From contig JBBSXC010000007.1 in assembly GCA_038045945.1 (NCBI GenBank), positions 1 through 53,098 of the forward strand: a DNA stretch of 53,098 bases. Reading direction: 5' to 3'. Positions 1 through 13,830 of the stretch are shown here, piece after piece. The number at the start of each line of letters is the position of its first letter. The stretch's first letter is position 1. Source of the stretch: Nanobdellota archaeon (lineage in GTDB: Archaea; Nanobdellota; Nanobdellia; Pacearchaeales; GW2011-AR1). Below the pieces are notes generated by a model. The model worked only from the letters and a program-made list of their open reading frames with translations, did no database searches and was not told the origin of the DNA. Position numbers and translations under genes: made by a program.

Positions 1-1
1 T

Positions 2-166
2 GTTACCCCTTTCTTTCCTTTTATGGATTTAGTTATTGGTTTGAATCTTGCTGGTTATTTGCCTTATCACATTCAGGGGGCTTTTTCTGCTTCTCTTGAT
101 GCTGTTTTACTTATGTTATGGATGATTTATATTGAGTTAAAACACAGAATTAGTAGCTTCATCTAG
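2..166 (+). CDS. 3' end of a probable membrane protein (partial)
   Basis: Frame open from the window edge to TAG at 164-166; hydrophobic translation VTPFFPFMDLVIGLNLAG...LLMLWMIYIELKHRISSFI*. Confidence 0.55.
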   Translation, partial: VTPFFPFMDLVIGLNLAGYLPYHIQGAFSASLDAVLLMLWMIYIELKHRISSFI

Positions 167-171
167 GTTTG

Positions 172-217
172 TTACTATTTACTAGTAACTAAATAGTAAG
201 GTTTATATAGTATTTTT
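172..217 (+). promoter_or_regulatory. Inverted repeat plus TATA box upstream of an orphan ORF
   Basis: TTACTATTTA-N8-TAAATAGTAA (172-199) followed by TTTATATA (202-209), about 22 nt before ATG 231. Confidence 0.5.
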
Positions 218-230
218 GTTTGTTTATGTT

Positions 231-464
231 ATGGTCAATACCGATTATAAGAGTTTTAGAAAAAAGCTTGAGGGCAGCATTAGCTCTATTCCTGAACCAA
301 ACATCAGGATGGCTGAAAATTTTGTTTCCACTTTTGAATCATCCTTAGGTAAGCCCAAAATGTCTGATTTAAGAAAGTATGATGCAGCTATAGATTTCCT
401 TTCTGATAAGGGTGGCTGTTCTGATCGCGACATTGCTAACGTTTTTTATGATTTAGGTATTTAG
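231..464 (+). CDS. Hypothetical protein
   Basis: ORF with a TATA box about 22 nt upstream of ATG 231; no recognisable motif. Confidence 0.6.
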   Translation: MVNTDYKSFRKKLEGSISSIPEPNIRMAENFVSTFESSLGKPKMSDLRKYDAAIDFLSDKGGCSDRDIANVFYDLGI

Positions 465-472
465 TAGCACAA

Positions 473-1273
473 CTAGTTTTTTATTTTTATGTTTATTCTC
501 CACCTGTACTTTCTCGGCGCTATGTCCCCTACTTTTATCACGCTTATTATTTCTGCTTCTCTTCCTTCTTCTCTTATTTCTTTCATTAGCTCCAATACCA
601 TTTTTTCTTTTTCTTCTTCATGACTGAATCCGTGGTAGTGTATTACTGCGTCTTTTTTTGCTACCATTAATGCGTATTTTATGAATGAATCCTGTAGGTT
701 CGGCCTTGCCATTATTATTCTTTGATAATACTCTTTTTTCTTTGCTAGTTTTGGCATTACTTTTTTTACGTCTCCTGGGATTATTTCTACTTTTCCTTCT
801 ACCTTGTTTTTTTTAACGTTTATTTTTGCGTACTTGTTGCATTCTTTTCCTAATTCTACGCTTACTATTTTTTTTATTTCTTTTTTGTTTTTTGCTATTA
901 TTATTGCGTATGGTGCTACTCCTCCGAACATTACTAGGATTTTCTCTTCTGGTTTACATTCTTGCATTAATCTTTTTCTTTCTTCTGATAGGCGGGGCGA
1001 AAAGTAGCATTTTTCTACGTTGAATTTGAATGTACACCCGTTCTCTCTGTATTCTGCTTCTTTTGTTTTTGTTCCCGCTAAGTGTTTTGTTTTTATTGTT
1101 CTTAGGCGTCCGCTTACTTGCCCTATTTTTTCTAGCACTGTGCTGATGTTTTTGTGTCTTTCTATTATTGTTTTTGCTACTTTTTTCTTTTCAGCTAATT
1201 TTTTCCCTCTTGTGGCATCCCTGCCATCTTCAAATTTTATTATTGCTATGTTTCCTACTATATCATAAGTCAT
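473..1273 (-). CDS. Trm5/TYW2 (Met-10+) family SAM-dependent tRNA methyltransferase
   Basis: YDIVGNIAII start; ENGCTFKFNVEKCYFSPRLSEER; SAM motif MFGGVAPY; GDVK. Confidence 0.85.
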   Translation of the reverse strand: MTYDIVGNIAIIKFEDGRDATRGKKLAEKKKVAKTIIERHKNISTVLEKIGQVSGRLRTIKTKHLAGTKTKEAEYRENGCTFKFNVEKCYFSPRLSEERKRLMQECKPEEKILVMFGGVAPYAIIIAKNKKEIKKIVSVELGKECNKYAKINVKKNKVEGKVEIIPGDVKKVMPKLAKKKEYYQRIIMARPNLQDSFIKYALMVAKKDAVIHYHGFSHEEEKEKMVLELMKEIREEGREAEIISVIKVGDIAPRKYRWRINIKIKN

Positions 1274-1304
1274 TATTATTCTAGTAAGAAAAGGTTTATA
1301 AATA

Positions 1305-1354
1305 TTAAAATTTTCTCAAAAAATTTTAAGACCTATAAATCCGAAGGATTTATA
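1305..1354. repeat. Double-hairpin palindromic element, copy 1
   Basis: TTAAAATTTT-ctcaa-AAAATTTTAA (1305-1329) and TATAAATCC-gaa-GGATTTATA (1334-1354), between divergent genes. Confidence 0.7.
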
Positions 1355-1378
1355 AGTTTCCTTAATTTGTGTTTATTC

Positions 1379-1663
1379 ATGAAGAGGTATATTGGTTACT
1401 TATTAATTATTGTTGGTTTCCTTTTTGTTGCTATGGGCTTGTCTTCTTCTAGTGCTGTTATTTCTAATTTTATTCCTTCTTTTGGTGTTCCTTCAATTGT
1501 TACTAATGTTCTTGGTTTAATCTTTATTGTTGTTGGGGTATATTTTTCTTGGTCTAGCAGCAGTAGTGGTGATGTTAAGCATGCTTCTTCTGAAGTTCCT
1601 ATTTATGAGGGCGAGGGCAAGCATAAAAAGATTATAGGTTATAAGAAAGTTGAAAACAAATAG
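1379..1663 (+). CDS. Small two-TM membrane protein
   Basis: Two hydrophobic segments and a C-terminal EVPIYEGEGKHKKIIGY tail; TATA-like ATTTATAA upstream. Confidence 0.75.
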   Translation: MKRYIGYLLIIVGFLFVAMGLSSSSAVISNFIPSFGVPSIVTNVLGLIFIVVGVYFSWSSSSSGDVKHASSEVPIYEGEGKHKKIIGYKKVENK

Positions 1664-1673
1664 TTAAAAATTT

Positions 1674-2462
1674 TTACATTTTCATTAGTGATTTTAGTCT
1701 ACTTCTTAAGTGTGCTACTCTGTGTTCATACTGAGCATCAGTCCATATTCCTGCCAGGTGATCTTTTTCTAATTCCTTTATTTTTTTCTTTATTTCCGCC
1801 TCATAGTCTTCTCTATTCCTGATGTTTAGTTGTTCCATTTGTTGTTTTAACATTATTCTCCTTATTGTTCCATCAGCGAAGAAGAATATTAGCGCTAGTA
1901 GTGCTATGAAGAAATAAACCCAGGATAATGGTCCTACCTCGTCGTATCTGTTAATCCATACTCCTATGAATATTACTGCGTATGCTAACCATAATGTTTT
2001 TCTTAGGACTGTGCTTTCAAATGCGTTTACGAAAAAGAAGAATATTATGAATGGTATTAATGCTGTTATTGCTACTCCTAGAACTGTGTATGATAATTTT
2101 GTAAAGTACACATTCACTACATCAAGGTTATATGTTACTCTTACTGCTAATAATGATACTGCTATTGCTATTATCCATACTATTCCCTTTTTTGGTGTTT
2201 TGTCTTTGTTTTGGAATACTGGGACTCTTATTAGCACAACATAGGTTACTGCTAACACTATTCCTAACATTAGTGTTCTTTCAAATAATTGGTCTGTTGT
2301 TCCTATTAGTATTGATAGTAGTGGCCCGAACATGTCTACAACCCATTGTATTATTTGACTCATTCCTTGCGCGAAGTTTAGGTCGAATGCTAGAACTCTT
2401 GCGGATAGCACTGTGACTATGGTTGTGCTTAATATTCCTAGAATTAGTTTGTTATTCTTCAT
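1674..2462 (-). CDS. Multipass membrane protein, paralog family member 1
   Basis: Signal peptide; several TM segments; SYTVLGVAITALIPF and FFFADGTIR motifs; charged helical C-terminus. Confidence 0.8.
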   Translation of the reverse strand: MKNNKLILGILSTTIVTVLSARVLAFDLNFAQGMSQIIQWVVDMFGPLLSILIGTTDQLFERTLMLGIVLAVTYVVLIRVPVFQNKDKTPKKGIVWIIAIAVSLLAVRVTYNLDVVNVYFTKLSYTVLGVAITALIPFIIFFFFVNAFESTVLRKTLWLAYAVIFIGVWINRYDEVGPLSWVYFFIALLALIFFFADGTIRRIMLKQQMEQLNIRNREDYEAEIKKKIKELEKDHLAGIWTDAQYEHRVAHLRSRLKSLMKM

Positions 2463-2465
2463 TTT

Positions 2466-3356
2466 TTATGCTGGGTGTGGCAGAGTTGGTGGTAGTGCTA
2501 TTCCTAAGGCTGCTGCTTGTCCCGCTAGGTTATTATATATTGTTCTGTAGTGTGTTCCCGTTATTCTTCCAGCCGGGTTAAAGTTGTATCCGCCTGCTCT
2601 TATGTCTGCTTCTAATCTTCTTGCTTCTCTGTTAACTGCTGCTATTCCGTGTGCGTGGCTTAAGTCATGTATTCTTCCTACTTCTGCTCTTCTTAGTGCT
2701 GATTGTATTGTTCCGTCGAATAGGAAGAATGCTAGGCATGCGAATGTTGTTATTAGGTATATCCATGCTGGGTTGAAGTTTCCTCCGGCTGCTGCTCCTA
2801 TTTCGTCAGCTCTCATGAAGTATAGTGATAAGAATACGACTCCTACGAATATCCACCCTATTTTCCTAAATATTCTTTGACAGCTTGTCATTTCGAAGAA
2901 GTAGAATAGTATTAGTAGTGGTATTAGTGATGCTATTGCTATCCCTAATACTGAGTATGGTAGCATTAGTGTTTCTATCCATCCTGGTGACGCTAGTATT
3001 CTTGTTGCTAGTATTGATGTTGCTATTGATACTAGTACTCTTGCCCATGTGTTGTCTCCGAATAATGCTATTGCGTCTACTACCGACCATATTATTGCCA
3101 GAACTACTGAGAAAAATAATATTTTTATGAATAATACCTCACCAGTTGTTAATCCTGCTATTGATGAGAATCCGAAGAATGGTGTTAGTATTGCGCTTAA
3201 GAAGTCTATTATTCCTTGGAATACTCTTTCAAATCCTTGTATGAAACTGTTCGATCCGTAATAATATGTTTGTGCACTAACAACCGACACCATTGTTATC
3301 GTTAATAATAGTAATAATAGTACAAAGTTTCCACCCAACAACCTTTTTTGTTTCAT
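2466..3356 (-). CDS. Multipass membrane protein, paralog family member 2
   Basis: Signal peptide ending VSAQ; GEVLFIK, GWIETLMLPYSVLG and FDGTIQ motifs; ends LPHPA; start placed at ATG 3356. Confidence 0.8.
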   Translation of the reverse strand: MKQKRLLGGNFVLLLLLLTITMVSVVSAQTYYYGSNSFIQGFERVFQGIIDFLSAILTPFFGFSSIAGLTTGEVLFIKILFFSVVLAIIWSVVDAIALFGDNTWARVLVSIATSILATRILASPGWIETLMLPYSVLGIAIASLIPLLILFYFFEMTSCQRIFRKIGWIFVGVVFLSLYFMRADEIGAAAGGNFNPAWIYLITTFACLAFFLFDGTIQSALRRAEVGRIHDLSHAHGIAAVNREARRLEADIRAGGYNFNPAGRITGTHYRTIYNNLAGQAAALGIALPPTLPHPA

Positions 3357-3379
3357 TGAATTTTTTACGACTAAATAGT

Positions 3380-3448
3380 TTAAAAATCCTTCGTATTTAG
3401 GATTTTTAAGCCACAAAATTTCTCAAGAAAATTTTGATGTTTATAAAT
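3380..3448. repeat. Double-hairpin palindromic element, copy 2
   Basis: TTAAAAATCCT-N8-AGGATTTTTAA (3380-3409) and CAAAATTT-ctcaaga-AAATTTTG (3414-3436), then ATGTTTATAAAT. Confidence 0.7.
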
Positions 3449-3522
3449 GCTTCGAGAATATCAGTTTTCCATCGATTAATAAACAGAAAACCTTAGAATT
3501 ATTCTTTAACAAAAGTTTATTT

Positions 3523-4473
3523 TTAAGCTGGGTGGGGTAGTGATGTTACCACGCTTTCAATTCCCGCAGCCTTTGCTCTTCCCTTTAGTGCGTTCCATAG
3601 GGTTTTGTAAATCTTATTTTTAACTTTCCCTGTTGCTGGATCTACAAAGTATGATCCGTTTGTTATTCCGCTTCTTAGTTTTTGTGCTCTTTCAATTATG
3701 TCTTGTTGTTCAACTGCTATTTCTAGTTCATTTGAGTTCTCTAATTCTGCTTGTCTGAATGCGTTTTGTATTGTTTTATCAGCAAATAATAGTACTATTG
3801 ATAACCCTGCTGTTATTAGGTATATTAGCGATGGATTCCAGTATGTACTTCCACCCACTTGTTGTTGTGATATTGCGTCAATAGCATCATATCTTGATAA
3901 GAATAGGAATGTGAATACTACTGCTGCGAATATCCACCCTATTTTTCTCCAAGTTTTTGATGTTATGAACTTTTCAATGAAGTAGAAGTATATTATGAAC
4001 GGTATGAATGCTGTTAATACTATTCCTAGTGCTGAGTATGGTAATAGTATTGTTTCAATCCATCCTGCTGTTAATAAGAATCTTACGCTTAGTATTGATA
4101 CTATTATTCCCACTACTGCAGATAATCCTTTTTTCCCTGAGAACAAGGGTACTGATGATATTAGTATTGAGAAAACTACTATGAATATTAGTGCTGCAAA
4201 TAATGATTTTATGAATAATACCTCCCCAACAGTACTCATTGGGTAACCTGCTCCTCCAACATTTCCCCCAAGTATTTGCGAATCTCCTAGTATTGGTTTT
4301 AGTATTGTGTTAAGGATACTCGTTGTTCCATCCCAAAAGTTTTGGAATGCGTCAGGAAATGATGCTCCCCTTCCGGCGTTAGCACCATAATTAATTTGTG
4401 CGCTTACTAAGAAGGATATTGATAGAATTGCTACTAGAACTGATGTTAAAATAATCCCACCCTTTTTACTCAT
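3523..4473 (-). CDS. Multipass membrane protein, paralog family member 3
   Basis: VSAQ signal peptide; GEVLFIK, GWIETILLPYSALG and FADKTIQ motifs; ends LPHPA; close paralog of 2466-3356. Confidence 0.85.
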   Translation of the reverse strand: MSKKGGIILTSVLVAILSISFLVSAQINYGANAGRGASFPDAFQNFWDGTTSILNTILKPILGDSQILGGNVGGAGYPMSTVGEVLFIKSLFAALIFIVVFSILISSVPLFSGKKGLSAVVGIIVSILSVRFLLTAGWIETILLPYSALGIVLTAFIPFIIYFYFIEKFITSKTWRKIGWIFAAVVFTFLFLSRYDAIDAISQQQVGGSTYWNPSLIYLITAGLSIVLLFADKTIQNAFRQAELENSNELEIAVEQQDIIERAQKLRSGITNGSYFVDPATGKVKNKIYKTLWNALKGRAKAAGIESVVTSLPHPA

Positions 4474-4602
4474 GACATTTCATAATTTGTTTTAGTATAT
4501 AAATGTTTTGAGAATAAGTGTTTTTAACGATTCTACAGTTACGAAAAGTCTAATATTTCTTTTTTTGTTCGTATTAGAATAAACAATTTTTTTGTTTTTA
4601 GT

Positions 4603-4646
4603 AATCACTACTTAGTGATTAAATAGTTAAATTTATATAGTATTTT
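4603..4646 (+). promoter_or_regulatory. Palindrome plus TATA box, closely resembling the 172-217 promoter
   Basis: AATCACTA-ct-TAGTGATT, then AAATAGTTAAATTTATATAGTATTTT. Confidence 0.5.
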
Positions 4647-4660
4647 CCCTTGCTTTATTC

Positions 4661-5053
4661 ATGACATGTATGGATTACCAAGATGTTTCTGTAGCAACAC
4701 CAAGTAATGATTATCTTAGCAGAAGTAAGGCCCTTATATCCGGGGATTATCCCACTTATGCTTCTCTTTGTGATGAACTGGGAGTAAGGCCTGAGGATCC
4801 ATTAGCTTATGAAATTGGTAAAACAGTAATTAATTATCATTCTCAAAGAGCGGCTAATGAAGATTCAAAAATATTAGAAATGTTAGAGTCAGAAGAGAGA
4901 GAAGCTTTAGGAATACCTGCTGCACCAAAATTCCCATCTACTACGGTCCCAAGGGTTAGAAGCTCTAGAAGAGGAGCCATACCTAATGGTTGTGAACCAA
5001 GGAATGACAGACAGAGAAGAGCGTCCGGGGATAAGCCAGGTATAGATTTCTAG
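4661..5053 (+). CDS. Hypothetical protein
   Basis: 130-aa ORF with TATA upstream; Arg-rich, probably disordered C-terminus; weak T skew. Confidence 0.6.
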   Translation: MTCMDYQDVSVATPSNDYLSRSKALISGDYPTYASLCDELGVRPEDPLAYEIGKTVINYHSQRAANEDSKILEMLESEEREALGIPAAPKFPSTTVPRVRSSRRGAIPNGCEPRNDRQRRASGDKPGIDF

Positions 5054-5104
5054 TTTTTTCTTTTTGATGCTAACTTTTATTAATTAACATTCTTGATTAT
5101 ATTT

Positions 5105-6145
5105 ATGGGTTTGCAAATTCGTGATATTATCTCTCGTAAGCAGATTGAGATTAAGGATCTTAAAGATAAAGTTATTTGTATTGATGCTTATAATATTATT
5201 TATCAGTTTCTTTCTACTATTAGGCAGCCTGATGGTACTCCTCTTAAGGATGATAAGGGCAATATTACCAGTCATCTTTCCGGTCTTTTTTATCGTAATA
5301 TTAATCTCTTAGATGATGGATTAAAGCTTGTTTATGTTTTTGATGGTAAGCCTCCCGAGCTTAAGAGTGCTACTAATGCTTCTAGAAAGGAGCATAAGGA
5401 GGATGCTAGGGTTAAGTTTGAGTCTGCTAAGGCTATTGATGATCGGCAGTCAATGGGCAAGTATTCTCGTCAAATGGTTTTTATTAATGAACAAATTGTT
5501 AATGAGAGTAAGGAGTTGTTAACTGCTATGGGTATTGCGGTTATTCAAGCTCCTAGCGAGGGTGAGGCTCAGGCTGCTCATCTTGCTCGTACTAATCCTG
5601 CAGCAGTTTATGCTGTTGGTAGTCAGGATTATGACAGTTTGCTCTTTGGTGCTCCTAGGCTTATTCAAAACTTGACTTTGGCTAATAAGCGTAAAACTGT
5701 TAGTGGTTACGTTGATGTTTCTCCCGAAATTATTGATCTTGATATGGTTCTTAATTCTTTGGAGATTAATCTTGATCAACTTATTTGTATTGGTATTCTT
5801 TGCGGTACTGATTATAATCCTGGCGGAGTTCGAGGTATTGGTCCTAAGAGAGCTTTGCAGATTGTTAAGACTTATAAGCAACCGGTTTTGATTTTTAATT
5901 CTTCGCAAGTTTTGGAAAGGTTTGCGCAGATGCTTTCTGAGGGTAACTCTTTTGATTGGCAGACTATTTTTGAGTTGTTTCATAAGCCCAATGTTGAAAA
6001 CTTCCCTATTGTTTTCCCGGACATTAATCTTGATGAGATTAAGAGGATTCTTCTTAGTAGAGGTTTTTCTTCTGATCGTATTGATAAACAATTATTGAGG
6101 ATTAAGAGACTAGTTAGTGATAGGAAGCAAACAAAATTGTTTTAA
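5105..6145 (+). CDS. fen: Flap endonuclease 1
   Basis: IDAYNIIYQFLSTIRQPDG, VFDGKPP, APSEGEAQA, SQDYDSLLFG, GTDYNPGGVRGIGPK; PIP-like C-terminal QTKLF. Confidence 0.97.
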   Translation: MGLQIRDIISRKQIEIKDLKDKVICIDAYNIIYQFLSTIRQPDGTPLKDDKGNITSHLSGLFYRNINLLDDGLKLVYVFDGKPPELKSATNASRKEHKEDARVKFESAKAIDDRQSMGKYSRQMVFINEQIVNESKELLTAMGIAVIQAPSEGEAQAAHLARTNPAAVYAVGSQDYDSLLFGAPRLIQNLTLANKRKTVSGYVDVSPEIIDLDMVLNSLEINLDQLICIGILCGTDYNPGGVRGIGPKRALQIVKTYKQPVLIFNSSQVLERFAQMLSEGNSFDWQTIFELFHKPNVENFPIVFPDINLDEIKRILLSRGFSSDRIDKQLLRIKRLVSDRKQTKLF

Positions 6146-6182
6146 AGAAAGTAATATAAATGTTGGTTAACAAGTCTTATTT

Positions 6183-6704
6183 ATGAATAAGAGGTTTACA
6201 CTAGTTTTTTTGTTAGCTTTAGTTCTTTCTTTGTTTATTGTTTCAGCTCAAAACAATAATGCGAGTAATTTTTCTCAAGGTCTTTCTGAAATATTTTCGG
6301 ATAATTCTCCCCTTAGCTTTCTCGTGATTTATTTTGCTGTTAGAATACTGGCTTTCATATTCATTTTTCATATGTTAGCTTTTGTTCCTTATTTTAAGAA
6401 TATAATTATAAGGTTTATTGTTTCAATAGTTGTTACCGGACTTATTTCTTTATCTGGCGGTTTTGTTTTAATTGTTGGATTATTACAGTCTTTTAGCGAG
6501 TTGGTTCTGAAGATTACTAGTATTGATAGTTATGCTGCCGGTTTCATCATCGTTCTTACCCTAGTTGCTGCTTTTCTTTACTTAATCATTCATTTTTCTA
6601 ACAAGTTCTTTTTGGAGAGTGTTCTTGATAAGACTGAGAATGATTCTACTTCTGCCGGTTTAAAGATTGCTGCCTTAAAGAAGATGTTTGATAATAAAAG
6701 ATAA
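6183..6704 (+). CDS. Membrane protein with signal peptide
   Basis: Signal peptide ending VSAQ; about 3 TM segments; FVPYF motif reminiscent of the neighbouring paralogs. Confidence 0.75.
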   Translation: MNKRFTLVFLLALVLSLFIVSAQNNNASNFSQGLSEIFSDNSPLSFLVIYFAVRILAFIFIFHMLAFVPYFKNIIIRFIVSIVVTGLISLSGGFVLIVGLLQSFSELVLKITSIDSYAAGFIIVLTLVAAFLYLIIHFSNKFFLESVLDKTENDSTSAGLKIAALKKMFDNKR

Positions 6705-6709
6705 GAGTT

Positions 6710-7387
6710 TTATTTGTCTAATGCTTTCATTCCTTTTTGTAATCCTTCTGCTGTTCTTTTTATAATCATTCTGTCACTTTCTGTTTCTTGAGCTTTCTTT
6801 GCTTCTTTCTTTCCTTCTAAGTTTCCACTTAACTTTTTGTTTAGGTAGCTTATTAATAATAATACAGCAGCTATTATTGCTGCTACTATTAGTCTTACTA
6901 TCAATGCTTCTGGTTTGAATACTAAGTATTCTATTAAGTATGCTATTCCTCTGTATAACCCTATTTGCGCTAGTATTATTGTTGCAAGTATTGCTGATAA
7001 AACAAGATATATCTTTTTCATTTCAAATGCTGACTTTGTTACCGAGTATATTTCTTTCATGAAATAAACCCATAATATTATTACTATTAAGAATTCTAGT
7101 GTTACGCTGAAGGGTTGTGCAAAGATTATTTTGAATACTAGAGAGTTTTTTTCTAGCCAATCATTCATTTTTGCTAGTTTTGGGTTTTGTAGCATTACTT
7201 TTTTGAATTCTTGCGATAAGTAGTCTCCCGGGCTTTGCGAGCCTTCTATTTTTTGGTTTATGTCTTGTGCTTTTTGTCCTAAACCTATTGCTAGTTGTGC
7301 TTCTGGCGGCACTTCCTGCGCGTTTACACTCAGGATTAGTGGTGCTATTAATAATATCAGAATTATTATCGCTAGCTCTTTTTTCAT
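6710..7387 (-). CDS. Membrane protein with signal peptide
   Basis: Signal peptide ending VNAQ; 3 TM segments; charged helical tail. Confidence 0.78.
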   Translation of the reverse strand: MKKELAIIILILLIAPLILSVNAQEVPPEAQLAIGLGQKAQDINQKIEGSQSPGDYLSQEFKKVMLQNPKLAKMNDWLEKNSLVFKIIFAQPFSVTLEFLIVIILWVYFMKEIYSVTKSAFEMKKIYLVLSAILATIILAQIGLYRGIAYLIEYLVFKPEALIVRLIVAAIIAAVLLLISYLNKKLSGNLEGKKEAKKAQETESDRMIIKRTAEGLQKGMKALDK

Positions 7388-7429
7388 GATTTAGAATTAT
7401 TTTTTCTCTTTATATAATTTGGGTCTTTA

Positions 7430-8173
7430 TCAATCAAACCCTTCTTTTTTACTTTCTAATCTTTTCAATCTCTCTTCCTCTACTTGTTGTAATAGGTTTA
7501 GTCTTCTTACTTTGTTTTCTACTAAAGTTTTTTCTGCTTCGAATCCTTGTTTTGCTAAGAATCCCATTATTTGTCCTTGTAAAAATAAGAATGTTAGGGA
7601 TAATATTATGATTATTAGGTACGCTAAGTATCCTCCTGCTTCTATCTTATCGTTTGAATATCCTGATACTAATTTGTATACTATGAATCCTATGAATCCT
7701 AACCATAAGATATAGCTTAATAATATACTGTTTTTTTCTGCTTTTCTTCTTGCTTCTACTGTAAAGAATATTAGTAATAAGAGAGGCACTACTCCTCCTA
7801 GCACCATCCCCATCGAGCTATAACTTACTAGTGTTAGTTGAATGTCTTCTGGCGTTAGGTACGCTGTTGCTAAGAATGATACTATGACTGCTAGTGCAAA
7901 CCTTAATATTTTGTTTCCAAATTTTTCTCCATTTGCTCCAAATAATGGTAGCATTCCCACTAGAGGGTATATGAATAAGAATACTAAAATGGCGAATAAG
8001 TATTTTGCTATAACAGGACTAAACTGCCCTAATTCCCAGTCCACTAATGCTTTTTTAGTTTTATCAACAACTTTTTCAGCACTTTTTTCTTGGGCTATTG
8101 TTATTGCTGTAAAGCTTAGTATTATTAGAGCAATGGTTAAGTAAGTAAGAAATTTTTTTGAACCTTTTTTCAT
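7430..8173 (-). CDS. Multipass membrane protein, paralog family member 4
   Basis: IAKYLF, FLATAYLTPEDI and LVSYSSMGMVLGGVVP motifs; coiled-coil-like tail. Confidence 0.8.
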   Translation of the reverse strand: MKKGSKKFLTYLTIALIILSFTAITIAQEKSAEKVVDKTKKALVDWELGQFSPVIAKYLFAILVFLFIYPLVGMLPLFGANGEKFGNKILRFALAVIVSFLATAYLTPEDIQLTLVSYSSMGMVLGGVVPLLLLIFFTVEARRKAEKNSILLSYILWLGFIGFIVYKLVSGYSNDKIEAGGYLAYLIIIILSLTFLFLQGQIMGFLAKQGFEAEKTLVENKVRRLNLLQQVEEERLKRLESKKEGFD

Positions 8174-8229
8174 TATGAAAAGTTGTTATTAGAAGTTTAT
8201 AAAAGTTTAGTAAAAAAATAATTAAGATT

Positions 8230-9027
8230 TTAAGAACTTACACCTAGTATCTTGTTTGCTCTGTCTCTTAGCGCCTTAGTCTTCTCATCGTATGTTGCTA
8301 GCGCTGCCCCAGTAAGCCCTCTTGGCCTGTCCCTATCTCTTCTTTCTGCTTCGCCTAGAAGTGATGACGCCAAATCTTTTCTTTCACTTTCTGTAGCTTG
8401 GTTTATTTCTGCCCTGAATAGAGCTCTCATAATCTTTCTTTGGAAAAATATGAATATTAGCGATACTGCTATGATTATCAAATATATGTAATACATCCAT
8501 TCCTGACCTTCCGGAGCATTTTTCATAGTGTCCCATGTTCTCCATGCTAAGAATCCTATGTATCCAATCCAGATAACGTAACTTACTATTAAACCTCCAA
8601 CACCATTTTCTTCCTTTCTCATCTCCACGCTAAAGAATACTAATAATATGAACGGTATTATCCCACCAAGCAATAACCCAAAGGCTCCGTATGATACTAA
8701 TGCCACTTTTATTTCTTCAGGAACTAAGTATGCTGTCGCTAAGAATCCAACTATTAGGGAGAAGATGAATTTTACCACTCTGTGCATATTCTTTATTACT
8801 GGCACAAATTTTACTATCTCATATATCATAACAACCAATAAAAATAAGAATAACCACTTTGCAACACCCACACTTAGATTACCAGATTGCCAACCAGTAA
8901 ACATATCCTTAATTGGATCCCATATTTTTTGTGCTGTGCTTTGTGCTGACACTAAACTTGTTAAGAATATTGATGTTAAAGATAAAACTAGTATTAGTGC
9001 TAAAATCCCTTTTCCACCAGTTTTCAT
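8230..9027 (-). CDS. Multipass membrane protein, paralog family member 5
   Basis: VSAQ signal; VAKWLF, FLATAYLVPEEI and LVSYGAFGLLLGGIIP motifs; close paralog of 7430-8173; start placed at ATG 9027. Confidence 0.8.
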   Translation of the reverse strand: MKTGGKGILALILVLSLTSIFLTSLVSAQSTAQKIWDPIKDMFTGWQSGNLSVGVAKWLFLFLLVVMIYEIVKFVPVIKNMHRVVKFIFSLIVGFLATAYLVPEEIKVALVSYGAFGLLLGGIIPFILLVFFSVEMRKEENGVGGLIVSYVIWIGYIGFLAWRTWDTMKNAPEGQEWMYYIYLIIIAVSLIFIFFQRKIMRALFRAEINQATESERKDLASSLLGEAERRDRDRPRGLTGAALATYDEKTKALRDRANKILGVSS

Positions 9028-9159
9028 GATTTCCTCAAAACTTTGTTCTTTATAAATATTTCGCAATTTTTGGCTCAATTGAAAAAAGAAAAATTATTTT
9101 TTTTGTGCTCCATTACTACTCGTATTAAGATATAAAAAGTCTTTTTGTGTTTGTTTTTT

Positions 9160-11661
9160 ATGGATTTTGTTTTTGTTCCTGTTGATTACCAATCTTTTGA
9201 TTACATGGATGAGAATTATGTTAAGATTTATGGTAGGAATAATGATGGGAAAAGGGTTTGTGTTATAGACAAGGTTAATCCTTACTTTTGGGCAATAATT
9301 AAGGATAAGACTAGCGATAAGGAACTAAAAAAGCTTGTTGCCAGTGTTGAAAAAATTAAGGTTTCTAACACTAACAGGACTAGTAGAGTTTTGAAGACAG
9401 AGGTTCATGATAAAAAGTTTTTGGGCAGAGATGTTAAGTCTCTGAAAATTTTTATTACTAATTATAAGGATGCTCCAGCGTTTGCTGACCAACTAGATTT
9501 TGATGTTATTGACAAGCGTCGAGAGCATGATTTAGGCACAATTACTAGGTATATTATGGATAGACAAGTTGTTCCTTTTAATCGTTACAAGGTTTCTGGT
9601 ACTTTGTGTGACAGCTCAGATTTTGGTGGTATGGTGAGTACTCTTAATGTTGATTATGTGATAAAAGCTGAAAATTTTACCCTTGTTAATAAAGAAAAAG
9701 GTGATGATTTTGTTCCTAGTATTCTTGCTTGTGATATTGAGACTGATGATTTGGAGATTGGTAAGGGTAAGATACTTATGATTTCTGTCCATGGTCGTGG
9801 CCATGATGGTAAATTGGTTAGTAAGGTTTTTTCGTTCGGCGCGAATTCTTCCTCTTCTTCCTTGGATTTTGTTGTTGATTGTAAATCAGAAGCTGGTATG
9901 CTTCAGTCTTTTGTTGATTTTATTAAAGAAAATACTCCTGATGTTTTAGTTGGTTATTATTCTGACTCTTTTGATATGCCTTATATTCGTGAGAGGTGTA
10001 AAAAACTTAAGGTTGATTTGTCTTTGGGCTTGGATGGTTCTTCGCCTTGGTCAATAGGTACTAAGCGTCAATCTGTTCGTTTTGAGGGTCTTGTTCATTT
10101 GGACTTGTTTAAGTTTATTCAGATTAATTATTCTCAGTATTTGCAGTCTGAAACTTTATCTCTTAATGAGGTTGCTGGCGAATTGTTAGGCGAAAATAAG
10201 CTTGTTCATGAGTTTAAGCATTCTTCTAAACTAACGAGTGCTGAGTGGGAACAATTTTTTCGTTATAACTTGCAGGATTCCGTTATAACTTTTAGGCTTT
10301 GTGATAAGATTTGGCATGATATGGCCGAGTTTTCTCGCGTTACTTGTAAGCCTCTTTTTGAGATGTCTAGGGATGGTATGTCTACTCATGTTGAGGATTA
10401 CATTCTTAATAATCTTTATCGTTTTAATGAAGTCGCTGAGAAGAAGGCTGTTCATGATGAGATTGGTGAAAGGATGGGCCGTGAAAAGTATGAGGGTGCT
10501 TTTGTTTTAGAACCAACTCCTGGTTTGTATGACCAGGTTGCCGTTTTTGATTTTACTTCTTTTTGGCCTAGTATTATTTCTACTTTTAATTTGTCTAGGT
10601 CAACTCTCTTAGAGAAGAAGTCTAAGGATTCTATAACTGTTGAGGTATCTACTAGTCCTAAAAGGGTTCATTATTTTTCTAAAAAACCTGGTTTTTTTCC
10701 CGAGATGCTTAAAGAAATTATTACTTTGAGAAAAGCCTGTAAGGCTGAGCTTAAAGTTAATCCTAGTCCTATTGTCCTTGCTCGTTCTAACTCTTTCAAG
10801 CTTTTAGCTAATGCTGCTTATGGTTACCAAGGATTTTTTGGTGCTAGGTATTATTGTCCAGAGGCTAGTGCTTCTGCTACTGCTATTAGTAGGAAATTTA
10901 TTAAGGAAACTATTACTAAAGCAGAAGATTTTGGTTTCAAAGCTATCTATGGGGATACGGACTCTTTGATGTTAGAAGCTAACGGTAAAACTCGTTCTGA
11001 TGCTCTTACTTTTTTGAAAAAGATTAATGGTGATCTTCCTGGTATCATGGAGCTTGACTTAGAGGATTTTTATAAGCGTGGATTATGGGTTACAACTAGG
11101 GGTGGCGAGTCTGGTGCTAAGAAGAAGTATGCTTTGATTAATGATAAGGGTAAAATGAAAATTCGTGGTTTTGAGACTGTTCGTAGAGACTGGTGTCGTT
11201 TGGCTCGTAATTTGCAGAATGAAATTTTAAAAATGATCCTTACTGAGGGTAATGAAAAGTCTGCTCTTCTTTACGCTAAAGAAATCATTAGTAAGCTTAA
11301 ATCTAGGAGGATTGATGTTAAGGATATTCTTATTAGAACTCAACTTAAGAAGAGTATTGATGTTTACAAATCTCGCGGCCCTCACGTTTTGGCTGCTGAG
11401 ATGATGATTTCTCGCTCCTTGCCTGTTGATTCTGGTATGCTTATAGAGTACTTTATTTCTGAGCCTGAGAAGGACTTGAAGGGTAAGCCTAAGTCTAAAC
11501 GTATTGGCGATCGTGTTGCTTTACCAGGGGACGATAAGCCTTACGATATCGATTATTATCTTAATAACCAAATTTTGCCTGCTGTTGAGAACATTTTCCA
11601 AGTTTTCAGTATTGAGACTAAGGACATTATTGAGGGAGAATCACAAAAAAGATTGTTCTAA
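9160..11661 (+). CDS. polB: Family B DNA polymerase
   Basis: ExoI DIET, ExoII SFDMPY, ExoIII YNLQD; motif A DFTSFWPSII, motif B KLLANAAYGY, motif C YGDTDS; KKKY; RGFETVRRDW. Confidence 0.97.
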   Translation: MDFVFVPVDYQSFDYMDENYVKIYGRNNDGKRVCVIDKVNPYFWAIIKDKTSDKELKKLVASVEKIKVSNTNRTSRVLKTEVHDKKFLGRDVKSLKIFITNYKDAPAFADQLDFDVIDKRREHDLGTITRYIMDRQVVPFNRYKVSGTLCDSSDFGGMVSTLNVDYVIKAENFTLVNKEKGDDFVPSILACDIETDDLEIGKGKILMISVHGRGHDGKLVSKVFSFGANSSSSSLDFVVDCKSEAGMLQSFVDFIKENTPDVLVGYYSDSFDMPYIRERCKKLKVDLSLGLDGSSPWSIGTKRQSVRFEGLVHLDLFKFIQINYSQYLQSETLSLNEVAGELLGENKLVHEFKHSSKLTSAEWEQFFRYNLQDSVITFRLCDKIWHDMAEFSRVTCKPLFEMSRDGMSTHVEDYILNNLYRFNEVAEKKAVHDEIGERMGREKYEGAFVLEPTPGLYDQVAVFDFTSFWPSIISTFNLSRSTLLEKKSKDSITVEVSTSPKRVHYFSKKPGFFPEMLKEIITLRKACKAELKVNPSPIVLARSNSFKLLANAAYGYQGFFGARYYCPEASASATAISRKFIKETITKAEDFGFKAIYGDTDSLMLEANGKTRSDALTFLKKINGDLPGIMELDLEDFYKRGLWVTTRGGESGAKKKYALINDKGKMKIRGFETVRRDWCRLARNLQNEILKMILTEGNEKSALLYAKEIISKLKSRRIDVKDILIRTQLKKSIDVYKSRGPHVLAAEMMISRSLPVDSGMLIEYFISEPEKDLKGKPKSKRIGDRVALPGDDKPYDIDYYLNNQILPAVENIFQVFSIETKDIIEGESQKRLF

Positions 11662-11708
11662 AATTTTAATAAGCAAAGGTTTAAATATATCAATTGATAA
11701 ATCTATTT

Positions 11709-11996
11709 ATGGAACTTCAAAAGTCTCCAAAGTTTAATGTTGCTAAAATTATTACTCGTAGCCCCACCCTTGAAACTGTCATGATGGTCGAGAATTTTAT
11801 CAAAAAACATAACGGCGATTTTAAAAGAAATGAATTATGGAAGATGCTTCCTAAAAAAGTGATGTGGGGCACTTTTAATGTCATACTCCAATACTTAGTA
11901 GACAATAGTAAAATAGGAATTGATAAAAATGATTATGTTGTTTATATTTGGAGCCCAGAAGCAGCAAAACTATTTATAAATCGGAAAGATTATTGA
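11709..11996 (+). CDS. Small winged-helix-like protein, putative antitoxin
   Basis: SPTLETVMMVE...LWKMLPKKVMWGTFNVILQYL; directly upstream of a RelE-like ORF; own TATA box. Confidence 0.6.
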   Translation: MELQKSPKFNVAKIITRSPTLETVMMVENFIKKHNGDFKRNELWKMLPKKVMWGTFNVILQYLVDNSKIGIDKNDYVVYIWSPEAAKLFINRKDY

Positions 11997-11999
11997 CTC

Positions 12000-12338
12000 A
12001 TGAGACTATTTCGATCCGCAGATAAAGTTAGATTCGCAGAAGATAAATCAGAGTTAGCATTTAATAAACTTGCAAATAATAGTCCCTTAAAGAACTCCAT
12101 CAATAAAGCCATTAAAGACCTTAAAGATAACGCCTTTTGTGGTGAGAGAATACCTCAAAAAATTATTCCTAAAGATTACACCAAAAAGTATAAAATTGAT
12201 AATTTGTGGTGGTATCCTCTTGCTGATGCTTGGAGGCTTGTTTATTCACTTGTTACACCCAGCAATATTGAAATAATAGCGGTTATTATTGACTATTCTA
12301 ACCACAAGGATTATGAAAGGAGGTTTGGCTATAAATAA
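12000..12338 (+). CDS. RelE/ParE-like toxin
   Basis: 112 aa; GERIP, LWWYPLADAWRLVYSL, HKDYERRFGY pattern resembling archaeal RelE-like proteins. Confidence 0.65.
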   Translation: MRLFRSADKVRFAEDKSELAFNKLANNSPLKNSINKAIKDLKDNAFCGERIPQKIIPKDYTKKYKIDNLWWYPLADAWRLVYSLVTPSNIEIIAVIIDYSNHKDYERRFGYK

Positions 12339-13341: not shown

Positions 13342-13830
13342 ATGGCTTCTTTTAATGTTCTTAATAATAAGGATAAGCAAGCTCTCCTTAGTCGCCTTAA
13401 TAATCAATTCGGTATTTCTAAAATTGATGGTTCTTTCATTACTTTCGGTCATGACAAATTTCGTGTTTTTACTGGTGTTATAACTGCTGACCAGATTAGT
13501 ACTTTAAAGCAGTTTTTTCGTCTTGAAATTTTAGGTTCTTACTTTTTTACTCTTGAAGGTGATGGCGATAATGATATTCGTCTTTCTCATGATGCTGCGA
13601 TAATTTTGCGTGATCAAATTACTAAGAATTTTGTTGTTATAGATAAGGCTCAGGAGTTTGATTGGCTTAGGGGCAAGGACGTTTCTTTAACTCCCGACCA
13701 AGTTAAGGATTACGAGTTGGTTCGTGGTTTTGTTGTTGTTAAGTGTGATGGAGAAGTTGTTGGTTGTGGTAGGATTAGTCAGGATGGTCGTTTGCGTAAT
13801 TTTGTTCCTAAAGAAAGAAGGATAAAGTAA
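13342..13830 (+). CDS. NIP7/RsmF C-terminal-like PUA-domain protein
   Basis: WLRGKD, VVGCG, LRNFVPKERR pattern; 2 nt downstream of the m5C methyltransferase. Confidence 0.7.
   Translation: MASFNVLNNKDKQALLSRLNNQFGISKIDGSFITFGHDKFRVFTGVITADQISTLKQFFRLEILGSYFFTLEGDGDNDIRLSHDAAIILRDQITKNFVVIDKAQEFDWLRGKDVSLTPDQVKDYELVRGFVVVKCDGEVVGCGRISQDGRLRNFVPKERRIK

What the first reader, a model, noticed from the sequence alone, without database searches (positions are those of the whole stretch)
1379..9027. Cluster of paralogous, uncharacterised multipass membrane proteins: candidate novel membrane machine
Seen: five genes (1674, 2466, 3523, 7430, 8230) share one architecture. It consists of a signal peptide (several ending VSAQ), a short outside region, TM helices, a conserved xY-xx-hG-x6-hP-(F/L) helix (SYTVLGVAITALIPF / PYSVLGIAIASLIPL / PYSALGIVLTAFIPF / SYSSMGMVLGGVVPL / SYGAFGLLLGGIIPF), further TM helices and a charged helical tail. 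They form two close pairs: 2466/3523 share GEVLFIK, GWIET and the terminal LPHPA; 7430/8230 share FLATAYLxPE. Two more signal-peptide membrane genes (6183, 6710) and a small two-TM gene (1379) lie among them. I recognise no family. Inference: these could be subunits of a hetero-oligomeric channel or host-contact/uptake structure of a symbiotic archaeon, expanded by tandem duplication. The location around fen and polB may or may not be meaningful.
Basis: partly seen in the sequence, partly recalled or inferred. Interest (0 to 1): 0.8.

Follow-up and report, generated by a model that had tools for sequence, protein, structure and literature searches.

The report
Unknown DPANN membrane-protein family, five tandem paralogs
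Five neighbouring genes of a tiny symbiotic-type (DPANN) archaeon are true copies of one membrane-protein family that matches no described family or fold, always sits in the same chromosomal slot in related archaea, and whose job is still unknown.

Summary
Genes 1674, 2466, 3523, 7430 and 8230 are real paralogs: 9 of 10 pairs match by BLASTP, and the close pairs B/C and D/E are 37% and 35% identical. Each has a Sec-type signal peptide ending VSA|Q, an amphipathic outside helix, five TM helices and a charged cytoplasmic helical tail.

No Pfam, NCBIfam, PADLOC, PHROGs or PDB-sequence match was found, and fold searches of two AlphaFold models gave only background-level helical hits. The family is large in metagenomes (2030 representatives at 50% identity). 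It was seen only in Pacearchaeota-type Nanoarchaeota.

In every relative examined, the slot between trm5 and fen-polB holds 1-3 such genes; this genome has five. In five genomes where the profile found nothing, the slot still holds very divergent members. There are two old subfamilies. The D/E type always lies next to the unrelated 3-TM protein G (10 of 10 loci).

A short, core-only form is homologous (hhalign 97%). It sits behind a PRC-barrel gene in a second conserved locus.

Function is not shown. My best guess, at about 0.35, is a hetero-oligomeric membrane scaffold or anchor. A channel is the main rival. Complex prediction never ran. VirB6/CedA gets no support.

The parts
1674..2462 (-). 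Paralog A (262 aa), A-type long form. It starts 3 nt behind B and has no TATA box of its own. Its tail carries GIWTDAQY, a SHOCT-like motif.
2466..3356 (-). Paralog B (296 aa from the ATG), B/C type. C-terminal LPHPA.
3523..4473 (-). Paralog C (316 aa), B/C type. Gly-rich insert in the outside segment. C-terminal LPHPA.
7430..8173 (-). Paralog D (247 aa), D/E subfamily, the type that always lies next to G.
8230..9027 (-). Paralog E (265 aa from the ATG), D/E subfamily. Recent duplicate of D.
6710..7387 (-). G (225 aa): signal peptide, 63-aa outside segment, 3 TM helices, charged tail. Unrelated in sequence but a constant neighbour of D/E-type genes.
6183..6704 (+). F (173 aa): signal peptide (IVSAQ), 3 TM helices, tail. 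Possible degenerate N-terminal relative. No homolog in the relatives' loci. No TATA box; lies 37 nt behind fen.
1379..1663 (+). H (94 aa): 2 TM helices plus a conserved C-terminal EVPIYEGEGKxKKIVGY motif. Convergent neighbour of the A-type gene in 10 loci.
4496..4503 (-). TATA-like box TTTATATA, 30 nt before the ATG of C.
3377..3384 (-). TATA-like box TTTAAACT, 28 nt before the ATG of B.
9049..9056 (-). TATA-like box TTTATAAA, 29 nt before the ATG of E.
8196..8203 (-). TATA-like box TTTATAAA, 30 nt before the ATG of D.
7410..7417 (-). TATA-like box TTATATAA, 30 nt before the ATG of G.
473..1273 (-). trm5/tyw2 methyltransferase. Left marker of the conserved slot, not part of the family.
5093..6145 (+). 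fen (FEN1/XPG). Marker of the slot, not part of the family.
9145..11661 (+). polB. Right marker of the slot, not part of the family.

Best explanation
SHOWN. A-E are five members of an uncharacterised superfamily of integral membrane proteins found so far only in Pacearchaeota-type Nanoarchaeota (DPANN). Each protein has a cleavable Sec signal peptide, an amphipathic helix on the outside, five TM helices and a variable, charged, helical cytoplasmic tail. The best-conserved part is TM2, the outside loop, TM3 and TM4. The genes fill a conserved chromosomal slot between trm5 and fen-polB. Relatives hold 1-3 copies there, some diverged beyond the reach of a plain profile search. Two old subfamilies exist: the A/B/C type, and the D/E type that always travels with the 3-TM protein G. 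Recent duplications (B/C, D/E) give this genome five copies. A short form lacks the signal peptide and tail but keeps the core. It occurs as 2-3 tandem copies directly behind a PRC-barrel gene elsewhere in the genome. INFERRED (about 0.35). The paralogs pack through the conserved TM core into a hetero-oligomeric membrane complex, with G as a partner of the D/E type. Its conserved face lies at the outer leaflet. Its variable tails end in subtype-specific motifs (SHOCT-like in the A type, LPxP in the B/C type) that dock cytoplasmic partners. In other words, it would be a membrane scaffold or anchor comparable in logic to the haloarchaeal ring anchor CdpA, rather than a solute transporter or an enzyme.
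For: Paralogy and architecture. AlphaFold models are all-helical with the predicted TM helices: C has pLDDT 79.7 and pTM 0.52; A, with 143 sequences, has pLDDT 87.1 and pTM 0.60.

No known family. Pfam gives nothing near threshold for the 8 proteins. Among 143 family members, no Pfam family hits more than 3. NCBIfam, PADLOC and PHROGs give nothing. The best E in a PDB sequence profile search is 0.31. The ESM Atlas returns only 'hypothetical' Nanobdellota clusters.

Size and range. There are 2030 representatives at E<=1e-3 and 774 at E<=1e-30; the best 150 are all 239-313 aa. Of 401 Nanoarchaeota-phylum genomes at least 90% complete, 17 match at E<=1e-10: own family 12/27, three other families 1/1, 1/1 and 2/12, none elsewhere. 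They have 1-3 matches each against 5 here.

Conserved slot. trm5 - (H) - long forms - (D/E type + G) - fen - polB is seen in 13 + 5 loci. In 5 of 5 own-family genomes without a profile hit, the slot still holds membrane genes. Four of them have signal-peptide, 4-6 TM, charged-tail proteins; an alignment of these is homologous to the family (hhalign 96.5%, E 9e-10). The fifth (L035) has one short-form-like gene and three G-like genes instead.

Subfamilies. The D/E type is a clade (88/96). All 11 G-adjacent rows form an exclusive clade with support 0.963. The D/E type lies next to G in 10 of 10 loci.

Short form. hhalign 97.4%, E 1.1e-11 over TM1-TM4. The match is reciprocal in the own genome. 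The order PRC-barrel, then 2-3 short forms, is conserved in 5 of 6 loci; the sixth is cut by a contig end.

Support for the scaffold reading. Few polar residues are conserved: R108, Y125, R154, W158, R172, Y183 and D197 in A numbering, all at helix ends. No catalytic-type constellation is present. Tails are the most variable part (2.96 bits against 1.5-1.9 in the core) but carry subtype motifs. Two or more diverged paralogs are kept in genomes of 0.5-0.9 Mb. B and A are 3 nt apart and share one promoter. The genome has 2 FtsZ, SepF and several PRC-barrel genes, the setting in which CdpA and PRC-barrel proteins act in Haloferax (PMC12126565 and 10.1101/2023.03.28.534520, passages read).
Against: No experiment or model shows any contact between these proteins; complex prediction never ran. 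Most genes have their own TATA box, so co-expression is not guaranteed. The signal peptide and the conserved outside-facing loop are not needed for a cytoplasmic anchor and fit an outward-facing role equally well. The link to PRC-barrel genes concerns the short form only, and PRC-barrel proteins have other roles too (10.1101/2023.03.28.534520). The SHOCT likeness rests on my recollection of that motif plus 1 of 143 weak Pfam hits (E 0.0058). A helix-break-helix between TM2 and TM3 with invariant G and P would also suit a pore loop.
Confidence: 0.35

Rival explanations
1. Oligomeric channel or pore. Several copies, homo- or heteromeric, ring a pore. The short helix and the conserved LLPYSxLG...P stretch between TM2 and TM3 would line its outer mouth, and the cytoplasmic helices would bundle below. 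The channel would serve uptake of metabolites by an organism with minimal metabolism.
For: The strongest conservation is in TM2, the outside loop, TM3 and TM4, with invariant G and P in TM3. Model C shows a helix-break-helix at the outer face: H115-132, H136-143, H148-169. The architecture of a small TM core plus a cytoplasmic helix is common in oligomeric channels (established knowledge). Multiple paralogs are retained.
Confidence: 0.25
2. Fast-evolving surface-exposed proteins for contact with a host cell, or targets or decoys for viruses. Paralog expansion would reflect diversification of the exposed N-terminal helix.
For: All members have signal peptides. The outside N-terminal segment is among the most variable parts (2.62 bits). 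Orthologs diverge faster than their neighbours: within the genus 49-55% identity against 65% for trm5; across the family 25-41% against about 47-57% for trm5, fen and polB. In some genomes the slot holds members no longer detectable by a plain profile. Copy number varies from 1 to 5. Castelle et al. 2021 (PMC8204110, passages) note that many DPANN lineage-specific families of unknown function are membrane-bound or extracellular and may be symbiosis-related.
Against: Only about 20-60 residues are exposed outside, too little for a typical adhesin. The conserved part is in the membrane. No repeats, lectin-like or Ig-like domains are present, and no longer fused forms were found (weak evidence). 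Membrane proteins in general evolve faster than replication enzymes.
Confidence: 0.15
3. Independent housekeeping membrane proteins, for example envelope or lipid homeostasis or stress response, that act alone. The paralogs would be partly redundant and the clustering would be only a trace of tandem duplication.
For: Most genes have their own promoter-like box. Neighbours are housekeeping genes with no shared theme. There is no partner ATPase or enzyme in the cluster.
Against: Strongly reduced genomes rarely keep 2-5 redundant paralogs plus 2-3 short forms. The D/E type and G stay together in 10 of 10 loci across families. The B-A gene pair is tight.
Confidence: 0.15
4. Very distant VirB6/TrbL- or CedA-type channel subunits of a conjugation or DNA-import apparatus.
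For: There is a superficial likeness: polytopic proteins with the N terminus outside and small TM partners nearby (H, F, G). R388 T4SS inner-membrane chains appear among the Foldseek rows for model C, but at E 1.4-1.6 and TM-score 0.13-0.18.
Against: None of 143 members hits Pfam TrbL at E<=0.01. The 93%-complete genome has no CagE/TrbE/VirB4 match. The only DUF87/HerA-type match lies on another contig. No pilin-like, VirB4, VirD4 or relaxase gene lies in or beside the cluster. The locus is a conserved chromosomal slot, not a mobile element.
Confidence: 0.05

Closest known systems
CdpA (HVO_0739) and the 'CdpA-like' membrane proteins of archaea (Liao et al. 2025, PMC12126565; passages read)
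   Same: Both have a conserved multi-TM N-terminal domain, a poorly conserved cytoplasmic linker and a small C-terminal docking part. The paper says CdpA-like proteins occur in diverse archaea with other lengths and TM numbers. CdpA works with FtsZ, SepF and PRC-barrel proteins. This genome has 2 FtsZ, SepF and PRC-barrel genes, and the short form of the family sits directly behind a PRC-barrel gene.
   Different: CdpA has 4 TM helices, no signal peptide and a disordered rather than helical linker, and is usually a single gene. The proteins here have a signal peptide, an outside helix and 5 TM helices, and occur as 2-5 paralogs. Sequence or fold kinship was not tested because no CdpA sequence was at hand. 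This is a likeness of design, not a shown relationship.
VirB6/TrbL (Pfam PF04610) and crenarchaeal CedA
   Same: Polytopic inner-membrane proteins of similar size with the N terminus outside, accompanied by small TM proteins.
   Different: No sequence match (0 of 143 members). No VirB4/CedB-type ATPase nearby, and none of the VirB4 type in the genome. Fold hits are at chance level. The context is chromosomal housekeeping genes.
SHOCT short C-terminal domain (Pfam PF09851)
   Same: The tail of A (GIWTDAQY...L) and of a subset of homologs carries G-h-h-T/S-x-x-E/D/Q-aromatic followed by a basic helix. As I recall the SHOCT consensus, this resembles it. The regex hits 21 of 143 tails, against 3 in upstream parts and 0 in reversed tails.
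   Different: Only 1 of 143 members reaches E 0.0058 against the Pfam model. B, C, D and E lack the motif. The function of SHOCT is itself unknown.
Lineage-specific protein-family modules of Pacearchaeota without functional prediction (Castelle et al. 2021, PMC8204110; passages read)
   Same: Same organisms and the same kind of object: families restricted to Pacearchaeota/Woesearchaeota, many predicted to be membrane-bound or extracellular, with no annotation.
   Different: That paper lists such families in bulk. I could not check whether this family is among them, because I did not open its supplementary table. It does not describe the architecture, the paralog structure, the conserved slot or the short form.

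Membership tests
VirB6/TrbL (PF04610) | Sequence match to the TrbL/VirB6 profile | tested here: not met
   Pfam scan of the 5 paralogs at E<=1 and of 143 family members at E<=0.01: TrbL is not among the hits.
VirB6/TrbL (PF04610) | Encoded with a VirB4-type ATPase and other T4SS parts | tested here: not met
   No such gene in the window. The CagE_TrbE_VirB family has no match in the 93%-complete genome.
VirB6/TrbL (PF04610) | Fold similar to solved VirB6/TrwI | tested here: inconclusive
   R388 T4SS chains 8rtd_H/I appear at Foldseek E 1.4-1.6 and TM 0.13-0.18. They are not listed by VIA-align. Helical membrane folds are poorly resolved by these searches.
CedA (Ced DNA-import system) | Neighbouring CedB (HerA/VirB4-like ATPase) and CedA1/A2 | tested here: not met
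   No ATPase in or next to the cluster. The single DUF87 match is on contig C1.
CedA (Ced DNA-import system) | Sequence or profile match to CedA | not testable with these tools
Pfam and NCBIfam scans returned nothing of that name.
CdpA-like archaeal membrane anchors | Homology to the CdpA N-terminal TM domain | not tested
NCBIfam and Pfam gave no hit for long or short forms.
CdpA-like archaeal membrane anchors | TM domain, variable cytoplasmic linker and small C-terminal part | tested here: inconclusive
   The layout is comparable for the long form, but with 5 TM helices, a signal peptide and a helical tail. The short form has no tail.
CdpA-like archaeal membrane anchors | Association with FtsZ/SepF/PRC-barrel division proteins | tested here: inconclusive
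   The short form lies directly behind a PRC-barrel gene in 5 of 6 loci. The long forms of the finding have no such neighbour. The genome has FtsZ x2, SepF and PRC genes.
SHOCT (PF09851) | Match to the SHOCT profile at the C terminus | tested here: inconclusive
   1 of 143 members at E 0.0058. A motif regex hits 21 of 143 tails. A itself gives no Pfam hit.
Sec-dependent, signal-peptidase-I-processed membrane proteins | N-terminal basic residues, hydrophobic core and a small-x-small cleavage motif | tested here: met
   MKK..., then an 18-20-residue hydrophobic stretch, then VSA|Q. Ala at -1 is conserved in 97% of 143 sequences. Cleavage itself is inferred. The organism's pilin-like genes show a different pattern, K(K/R)G followed by polar residues.

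The most novel reading that the evidence does not exclude
The long forms, the short forms and G would together make up a previously unrecognised DPANN-specific membrane machine. This would be a hetero-oligomeric, envelope-spanning assembly built from one 4-5-TM module. It would either be a new class of channel for taking up host-derived compounds, or it would couple the cell surface to the FtsZ/SepF/PRC-barrel division apparatus, as a distant, much-expanded counterpart of the haloarchaeal anchor CdpA.
Probability: 0.2. Interest if true: 0.75.

Novelty: categorically new. Interest (0 to 1): 0.5.

Why it matters
DPANN archaea have tiny genomes. How they build their envelope, divide and draw on other cells is largely unknown, and much of what sets them apart is unannotated membrane proteins.

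This family takes up 7 genes (5 long, 2 short) of an 847-kb genome. It keeps a fixed chromosomal place across a class of Nanoarchaeota and has thousands of relatives in metagenomes. No curated library and no solved structure accounts for it. That makes it a well-defined target for structural and localisation work: clear architecture, subfamilies, a constant partner (G) and a core-only form next to a PRC-barrel gene.

If the link to the division apparatus or to uptake were shown, it would fill a real gap. If the proteins turn out to be simple scaffolds, the finding is still a clean description of a new family. At present it is a family of unknown function, not a demonstrated machine.

Tried and rejected
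Complex prediction. Two jobs were prepared. The first was D (A7, residues 28-247) with G (A4, residues 24-225). The second was four copies of the core of A (A6, residues 25-215). Neither was ever accepted: the queue was full or the machine gave no usable answer at (first job; second job). There is therefore no result on binding either way.

Fold searches.
- Foldseek against PDB: model C best E 0.73; model A best E 0.80.
- Foldseek against BFVD: best E 0.44.
- No library of predicted cellular structures was available.

Sequence libraries. Pfam, NCBIfam, PADLOC, PHROGs and a PDB profile search all gave nothing.

Fused forms. A search for proteins of 554-2000 aa found none. The tool itself calls this weak evidence.

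Expression. No RNA holder was listed. Only 4 DNA runs of one groundwater study hold the stretch, two of them possibly the source.

Earlier findings of the scan. There was nothing near the locus or like protein A. The genome-wide list held nothing that bears on this locus.

G as a hidden family member: rejected (hhalign 46.7%, signal peptide only).

Class III (pilin-type) signal peptide: rejected in favour of a signal-peptidase-I site, because of the nearly invariant S-A at the end of the hydrophobic stretch.

Mobile element or provirus: rejected. The slot is conserved, G+C is level at 0.32-0.36, and there is no integrase.

Literature. Only two searches were made. Neither listing showed a paper on this family, which is thin ground for saying it is not in print. 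The supplementary tables of PMC8204110 were not opened and may list it as an unnamed cluster.

Full report
**1. What is in the sequence**

The window is a 53-kb piece (contig C7) of an 847-kb, 7-contig, 93%-complete genome. Named database hits of the proteins studied here come from 'Candidatus Pacearchaeota archaeon' and 'Nanoarchaeota archaeon'. The ESM Atlas places the relatives in Nanobdellota.

The ORF list contains all eight genes of the finding:

| Gene | Coordinates | Length |
|---|---|---|
| H | 1379-1663 (+) | 94 aa |
| A | 1674-2462 (-) | 262 aa |
| B | 2466-3356 (-) | 296 aa from the ATG |
| C | 3523-4473 (-) | 316 aa |
| F | 6183-6704 (+) | 173 aa |
| G | 6710-7387 (-) | 225 aa |
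| D | 7430-8173 (-) | 247 aa |
| E | 8230-9027 (-) | 265 aa from the ATG |

A small soluble ORF (4661-5053), fen (5093-6145) and polB (9145-11661) lie among and beside them. A trm5/tyw2 methyltransferase (473-1273) lies on the left.

**2. Paralogy**

BLASTP among the local proteins gave these pairs:
- B/C: 37% identity, E 6e-58
- D/E: 35%, E 3e-43
- A/B: 29%, E 4e-26
- A/C: 31%, E 2e-20
- A/E: E 3e-10
- B/E: E 3e-8
- C/E: E 5e-7
- A/D: E 6e-5
- C/D: E 8e-5
- B/D: no row

The five align over their whole length, with invariant L, Y, G, P, F, W, Y and I positions. A profile of the five recovers exactly these five in the genome, plus one weak hit on contig C4.

F aligns only over signal peptide, outside helix and TM1 (hhalign 62%, E 7e-5). 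The family HMM does not find it in the genome. G shares only the signal peptide. H is unrelated.

**3. Architecture**

A hydropathy script and two AlphaFold models agree. Model C used 24 sequences (pLDDT 79.7, pTM 0.52). Model A used 143 sequences (pLDDT 87.1, pTM 0.60). From N to C terminus:
- basic N terminus;
- hydrophobic stretch of about 20 residues ending V-S-A|Q, with Ala at -1 in 97% of 143 sequences;
- amphipathic helix (hydrophobic moment 0.51-0.68);
- five TM helices;
- cytoplasmic tail of 50-85 residues, helical and rich in K, R, D and E.

The loops after TM1 and TM3 are rich in K and R. By the positive-inside rule (established knowledge) the N terminus is outside and the C terminus inside.

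Conservation over 143 sequences:

| Region | Mean column entropy (bits) |
|---|---|
| TM3 | 1.51 |
| TM4 | 1.59 |
| TM2 | 1.86 |
| TM2-TM3 outside loop | 1.87 |
| Outside N-terminal segment | 2.62 |
| Cytoplasmic tail | 2.96 |

Residues kept in at least 94% of sequences (A numbering) are G54, L105, R108, L123, P124, Y125, G129, P137, R154, W158, F165, R172, Y183 and D197. The polar ones sit at helix ends, not inside the bilayer.

Tails carry subtype motifs. A and a subset of homologs have G-h-h-T/S-x-x-E/D/Q-aromatic. The regex hits 21 of 143 tails, 3 upstream parts and 0 reversed tails. B and C end in LPHPA, and LPxP ends 7 of 143. The first motif resembles SHOCT as I recall that domain. Pfam supports this in only 1 of 143 members (E 0.0058).

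G has a signal peptide, a 63-residue outside segment, 3 TM helices and a charged tail. F has a signal peptide, 3 TM helices and a tail. H has 2 TM helices with both ends inside and a conserved C-terminal EVPIYEGEGKxKKIVGY.

**4. Transcription signals**

A TATA-like box (TTTA[AT]A, TTATAT or TATATA) starts 26-33 nt before the ATG of H, B, C, the 4661 ORF, G, D, E and trm5. That is 8 of the 10 genes tested, against 1.2% of 20,000 random positions in the window.

This fits leaderless transcripts with individual promoters and supports the ATG starts chosen for B and E. A starts 3 nt behind B and has no box, so it is probably co-transcribed with B. F lies 37 nt behind fen and also has none. Function of these boxes is inferred, not shown.

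**5. Known families**

Sequence libraries gave nothing:
- Pfam: nothing near threshold for the local proteins. Among 143 members the commonest 'hit' occurs in 3, at E about 2e-3.
- NCBIfam, PADLOC and PHROGs: no hits.
- PDB sequence profile: best E 0.31.

Fold searches gave only background:
- Foldseek against PDB: best E 0.73 (C) and 0.80 (A).
- Foldseek against viral models: best E 0.44.

So no known fold was found. The N-terminal half was barely tested, and no library of predicted cellular structures was available. The ESM Atlas returned only 'hypothetical protein' clusters of Nanobdellota.

**6. Size and range of the family**

A word-indexed search with C gave 19 hits of 258-303 aa, all unnamed or 'hypothetical'. 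An exhaustive profile search of 1.84 billion representatives gave 2030 proteins at E<=1e-3, 1626 at E<=1e-10 and 774 at E<=1e-30. The best 150 are all 239-313 aa. No longer fused forms were found (weak evidence).

Among 41 relatives including G000, 22 had a match at E<=1e-5. The own family scored 16/24 and another family of the order 3/3. Some of the weak matches are the short form.

Among 401 genomes of the phylum at least 90% complete, 17 matched at E<=1e-10: own family 12/27, three other families 1/1, 1/1 and 2/12, and none in the rest. They had 1-3 matches per genome, against 5 in this genome.

**7. A conserved slot**

I fetched 13 loci and compared their ORFs with the window's proteins. 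The recurring order is trm5 - H - A-type - B/C-type - (D/E-type - G) - fen - polB. It holds through the own family and another family of the order. Five further loci, including two families of the class, show the same order.

I then took five own-family genomes that had no profile hit, all at least 90% complete. I located trm5 in each and read the slot.
- In four of them, trm5 and fen flank one or two proteins with a signal peptide (…VSAAS, …ISAQS), 4-6 hydrophobic helices and a long charged tail.
- The fifth holds one short-form-like gene and three G-like genes.
- An alignment of the four genomes' slot proteins matches the family profile (hhalign 96.5%, E 9e-10, 92 columns).

So the slot is constant while its content diverges fast. 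Within the genus, A, B and H are 49-55% identical against 65% for trm5. Across the family the membrane proteins are 25-41% identical, against about 47-57% for trm5, fen and polB.

**8. Subfamilies and duplications**

An IQ-TREE tree of 30 long forms with three short forms as outgroup shows:
- a D/E-type clade (8 rows, 88/96);
- W_D and W_E as sisters (100/98);
- W_A with the H-adjacent genes of three genera (98/94);
- W_B and W_C with two orthologs (99/94).

In a FastTree of 42 rows, the 11 genes that lie next to a G-type gene, including W_D and W_E, form an exclusive clade with support 0.963. D/E-type genes lie next to a G-type gene in 10 of 10 loci.

The five copies therefore come from an old split (A/B/C type against D/E type), an older A versus B/C split, and two recent duplications.

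**9. A short form elsewhere**

The weak hit on contig C4 is one of two tandem genes (163 and 179 aa) without signal peptide and tail. With their relatives (alignment A3) they match the long-form profile over TM1-TM4 (hhalign 97.4%, E 1.1e-11, 115 columns). The match is reciprocal in the own genome.

They too are unannotated: 218 hits, with no Pfam domain in the 120 listed.

Their locus is conserved. The order is helicase - M50-like - PRC-barrel - 2-3 short forms. On the other strand lie two coiled-coil proteins, then a T2SSE-type ATPase. All five loci whose DNA covers that side keep the PRC-barrel-to-short-form order, and four of them also hold the ATPase; the sixth locus is cut by a contig end. 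Downstream in this genome lie a TrmB-like regulator, large unannotated proteins and several genes with pilin-type K(K/R)G N termini.

The genome has two FtsZ, SepF and several PRC-barrel genes.

In Haloferax, PRC-barrel proteins (CdpB) and the 4-TM membrane protein CdpA belong to the FtsZ ring. 'CdpA-like' proteins with other TM numbers are reported in diverse archaea (PMC12126565 and 10.1101/2023.03.28.534520; passages read through term searches). Whether the short or long forms are CdpA-like could not be tested. It is a lead, not a result.

**10. What it most likely is and does**

Shown: a real, large, lineage-restricted superfamily of membrane proteins with a defined topology, a conserved TM core, variable ends, old subfamilies, a constant partner gene (G) for one subfamily, and a fixed chromosomal slot.

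Inferred: I rank a hetero-oligomeric membrane scaffold or anchor first (about 0.35). Four observations lead there.
- Conserved polar residues are few and sit at helix ends.
- Nothing enzyme- or transporter-like is found.
- The tails are variable linkers ending in subtype motifs.
- Minimal genomes keep several diverged copies, and the core-only form is tied to a PRC-barrel gene.

Rivals:
- A channel comes second (0.25). The conserved helix-break-helix between TM2 and TM3 with invariant G and P would suit a pore loop.
- Surface interaction under diversifying pressure (0.15) explains the fast divergence and copy-number variation. It does not explain the tiny exposed part.
- Independent housekeeping roles (0.15) remain possible.
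- VirB6/CedA kinship (0.05) has no support.

The neighbourhood of fen and polB is conserved but consists of unrelated housekeeping genes. I read it as synteny, not function.

**11. Novelty and verdict**

No curated library and no solved structure matches the family. Castelle et al. 2021 (PMC8204110, passages) state in general terms that Pacearchaeota have lineage-specific families without prediction, many of them membrane-bound. This family may be among their unnamed clusters; I did not open their supplement.

As a protein family it lies outside every described kind that I could test. As a 'machine' it is unproven. Interest is 0.5: a clean, well-delimited target in an organism group where envelope, division and host dependence are open questions, but with no functional evidence yet.

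Noticed in passing
window 1-9100 (boxes listed under parts): A TATA-like box starts 26-33 nt before the ATG of 8 of 10 genes, against 1.2% of random positions. This suggests leaderless transcripts with one promoter per gene in this archaeon. A and F have none.
   Followed up: partly
window 1379-1663 (H) and homologs in L014-L020, L026, L042: This small 2-TM protein has a strongly conserved C-terminal motif, EVPIYEGEGKxKKIVGY. It matches no family. It always lies between trm5 and the A-type gene, convergent with the latter.
   Followed up: partly
G000 contig C4, about 203-224 kb (L013 3498-9479; L027): A conserved locus. The order is M50-like protease, PRC-barrel protein, two short-form paralogs, then two coiled-coil proteins on the other strand. 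A 768-aa T2SSE-type ATPase follows, then a TrmB-like regulator, 722-aa and 1067-aa unannotated proteins, and several genes with pilin-type K(K/R)G N termini. It may join a division-type PRC-barrel module to a type IV pilus-like locus.
   Followed up: partly
window 4661-5053: A 130-aa soluble protein without any family match, with its own TATA box. Weak homologs lie directly beside fen in L019 (E 1.4e-6) and L042 (E 8e-5).
   Followed up: no
window 12341-13339 and 13342-13830: The RsmB/F methyltransferase core and its PUA-like RNA-binding domain are two separate ORFs 2 nt apart. In relative L034 they are also separate, there with another gene between them. So the split seems to be the normal state in this lineage.
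   Followed up: no
window 48335-49048: A 237-aa protein with a bacterial sigma-70 region 4 match (E 1.5e-6) in an archaeal genome. Castelle et al. 2021 report sigma-70-like genes in Woesearchaeota.
   Followed up: no
window 31567-32184: A DisA-N (diadenylate cyclase) domain protein, so c-di-AMP signalling is probably present in this reduced genome.
   Followed up: no
L035 (G281:C1) 9793-12189: In this relative the trm5-fen slot holds a 109-aa short-form-like gene and three G-like genes, but no long form. G-type genes can therefore also multiply and can occur without a detectable D/E-type partner.
   Followed up: no
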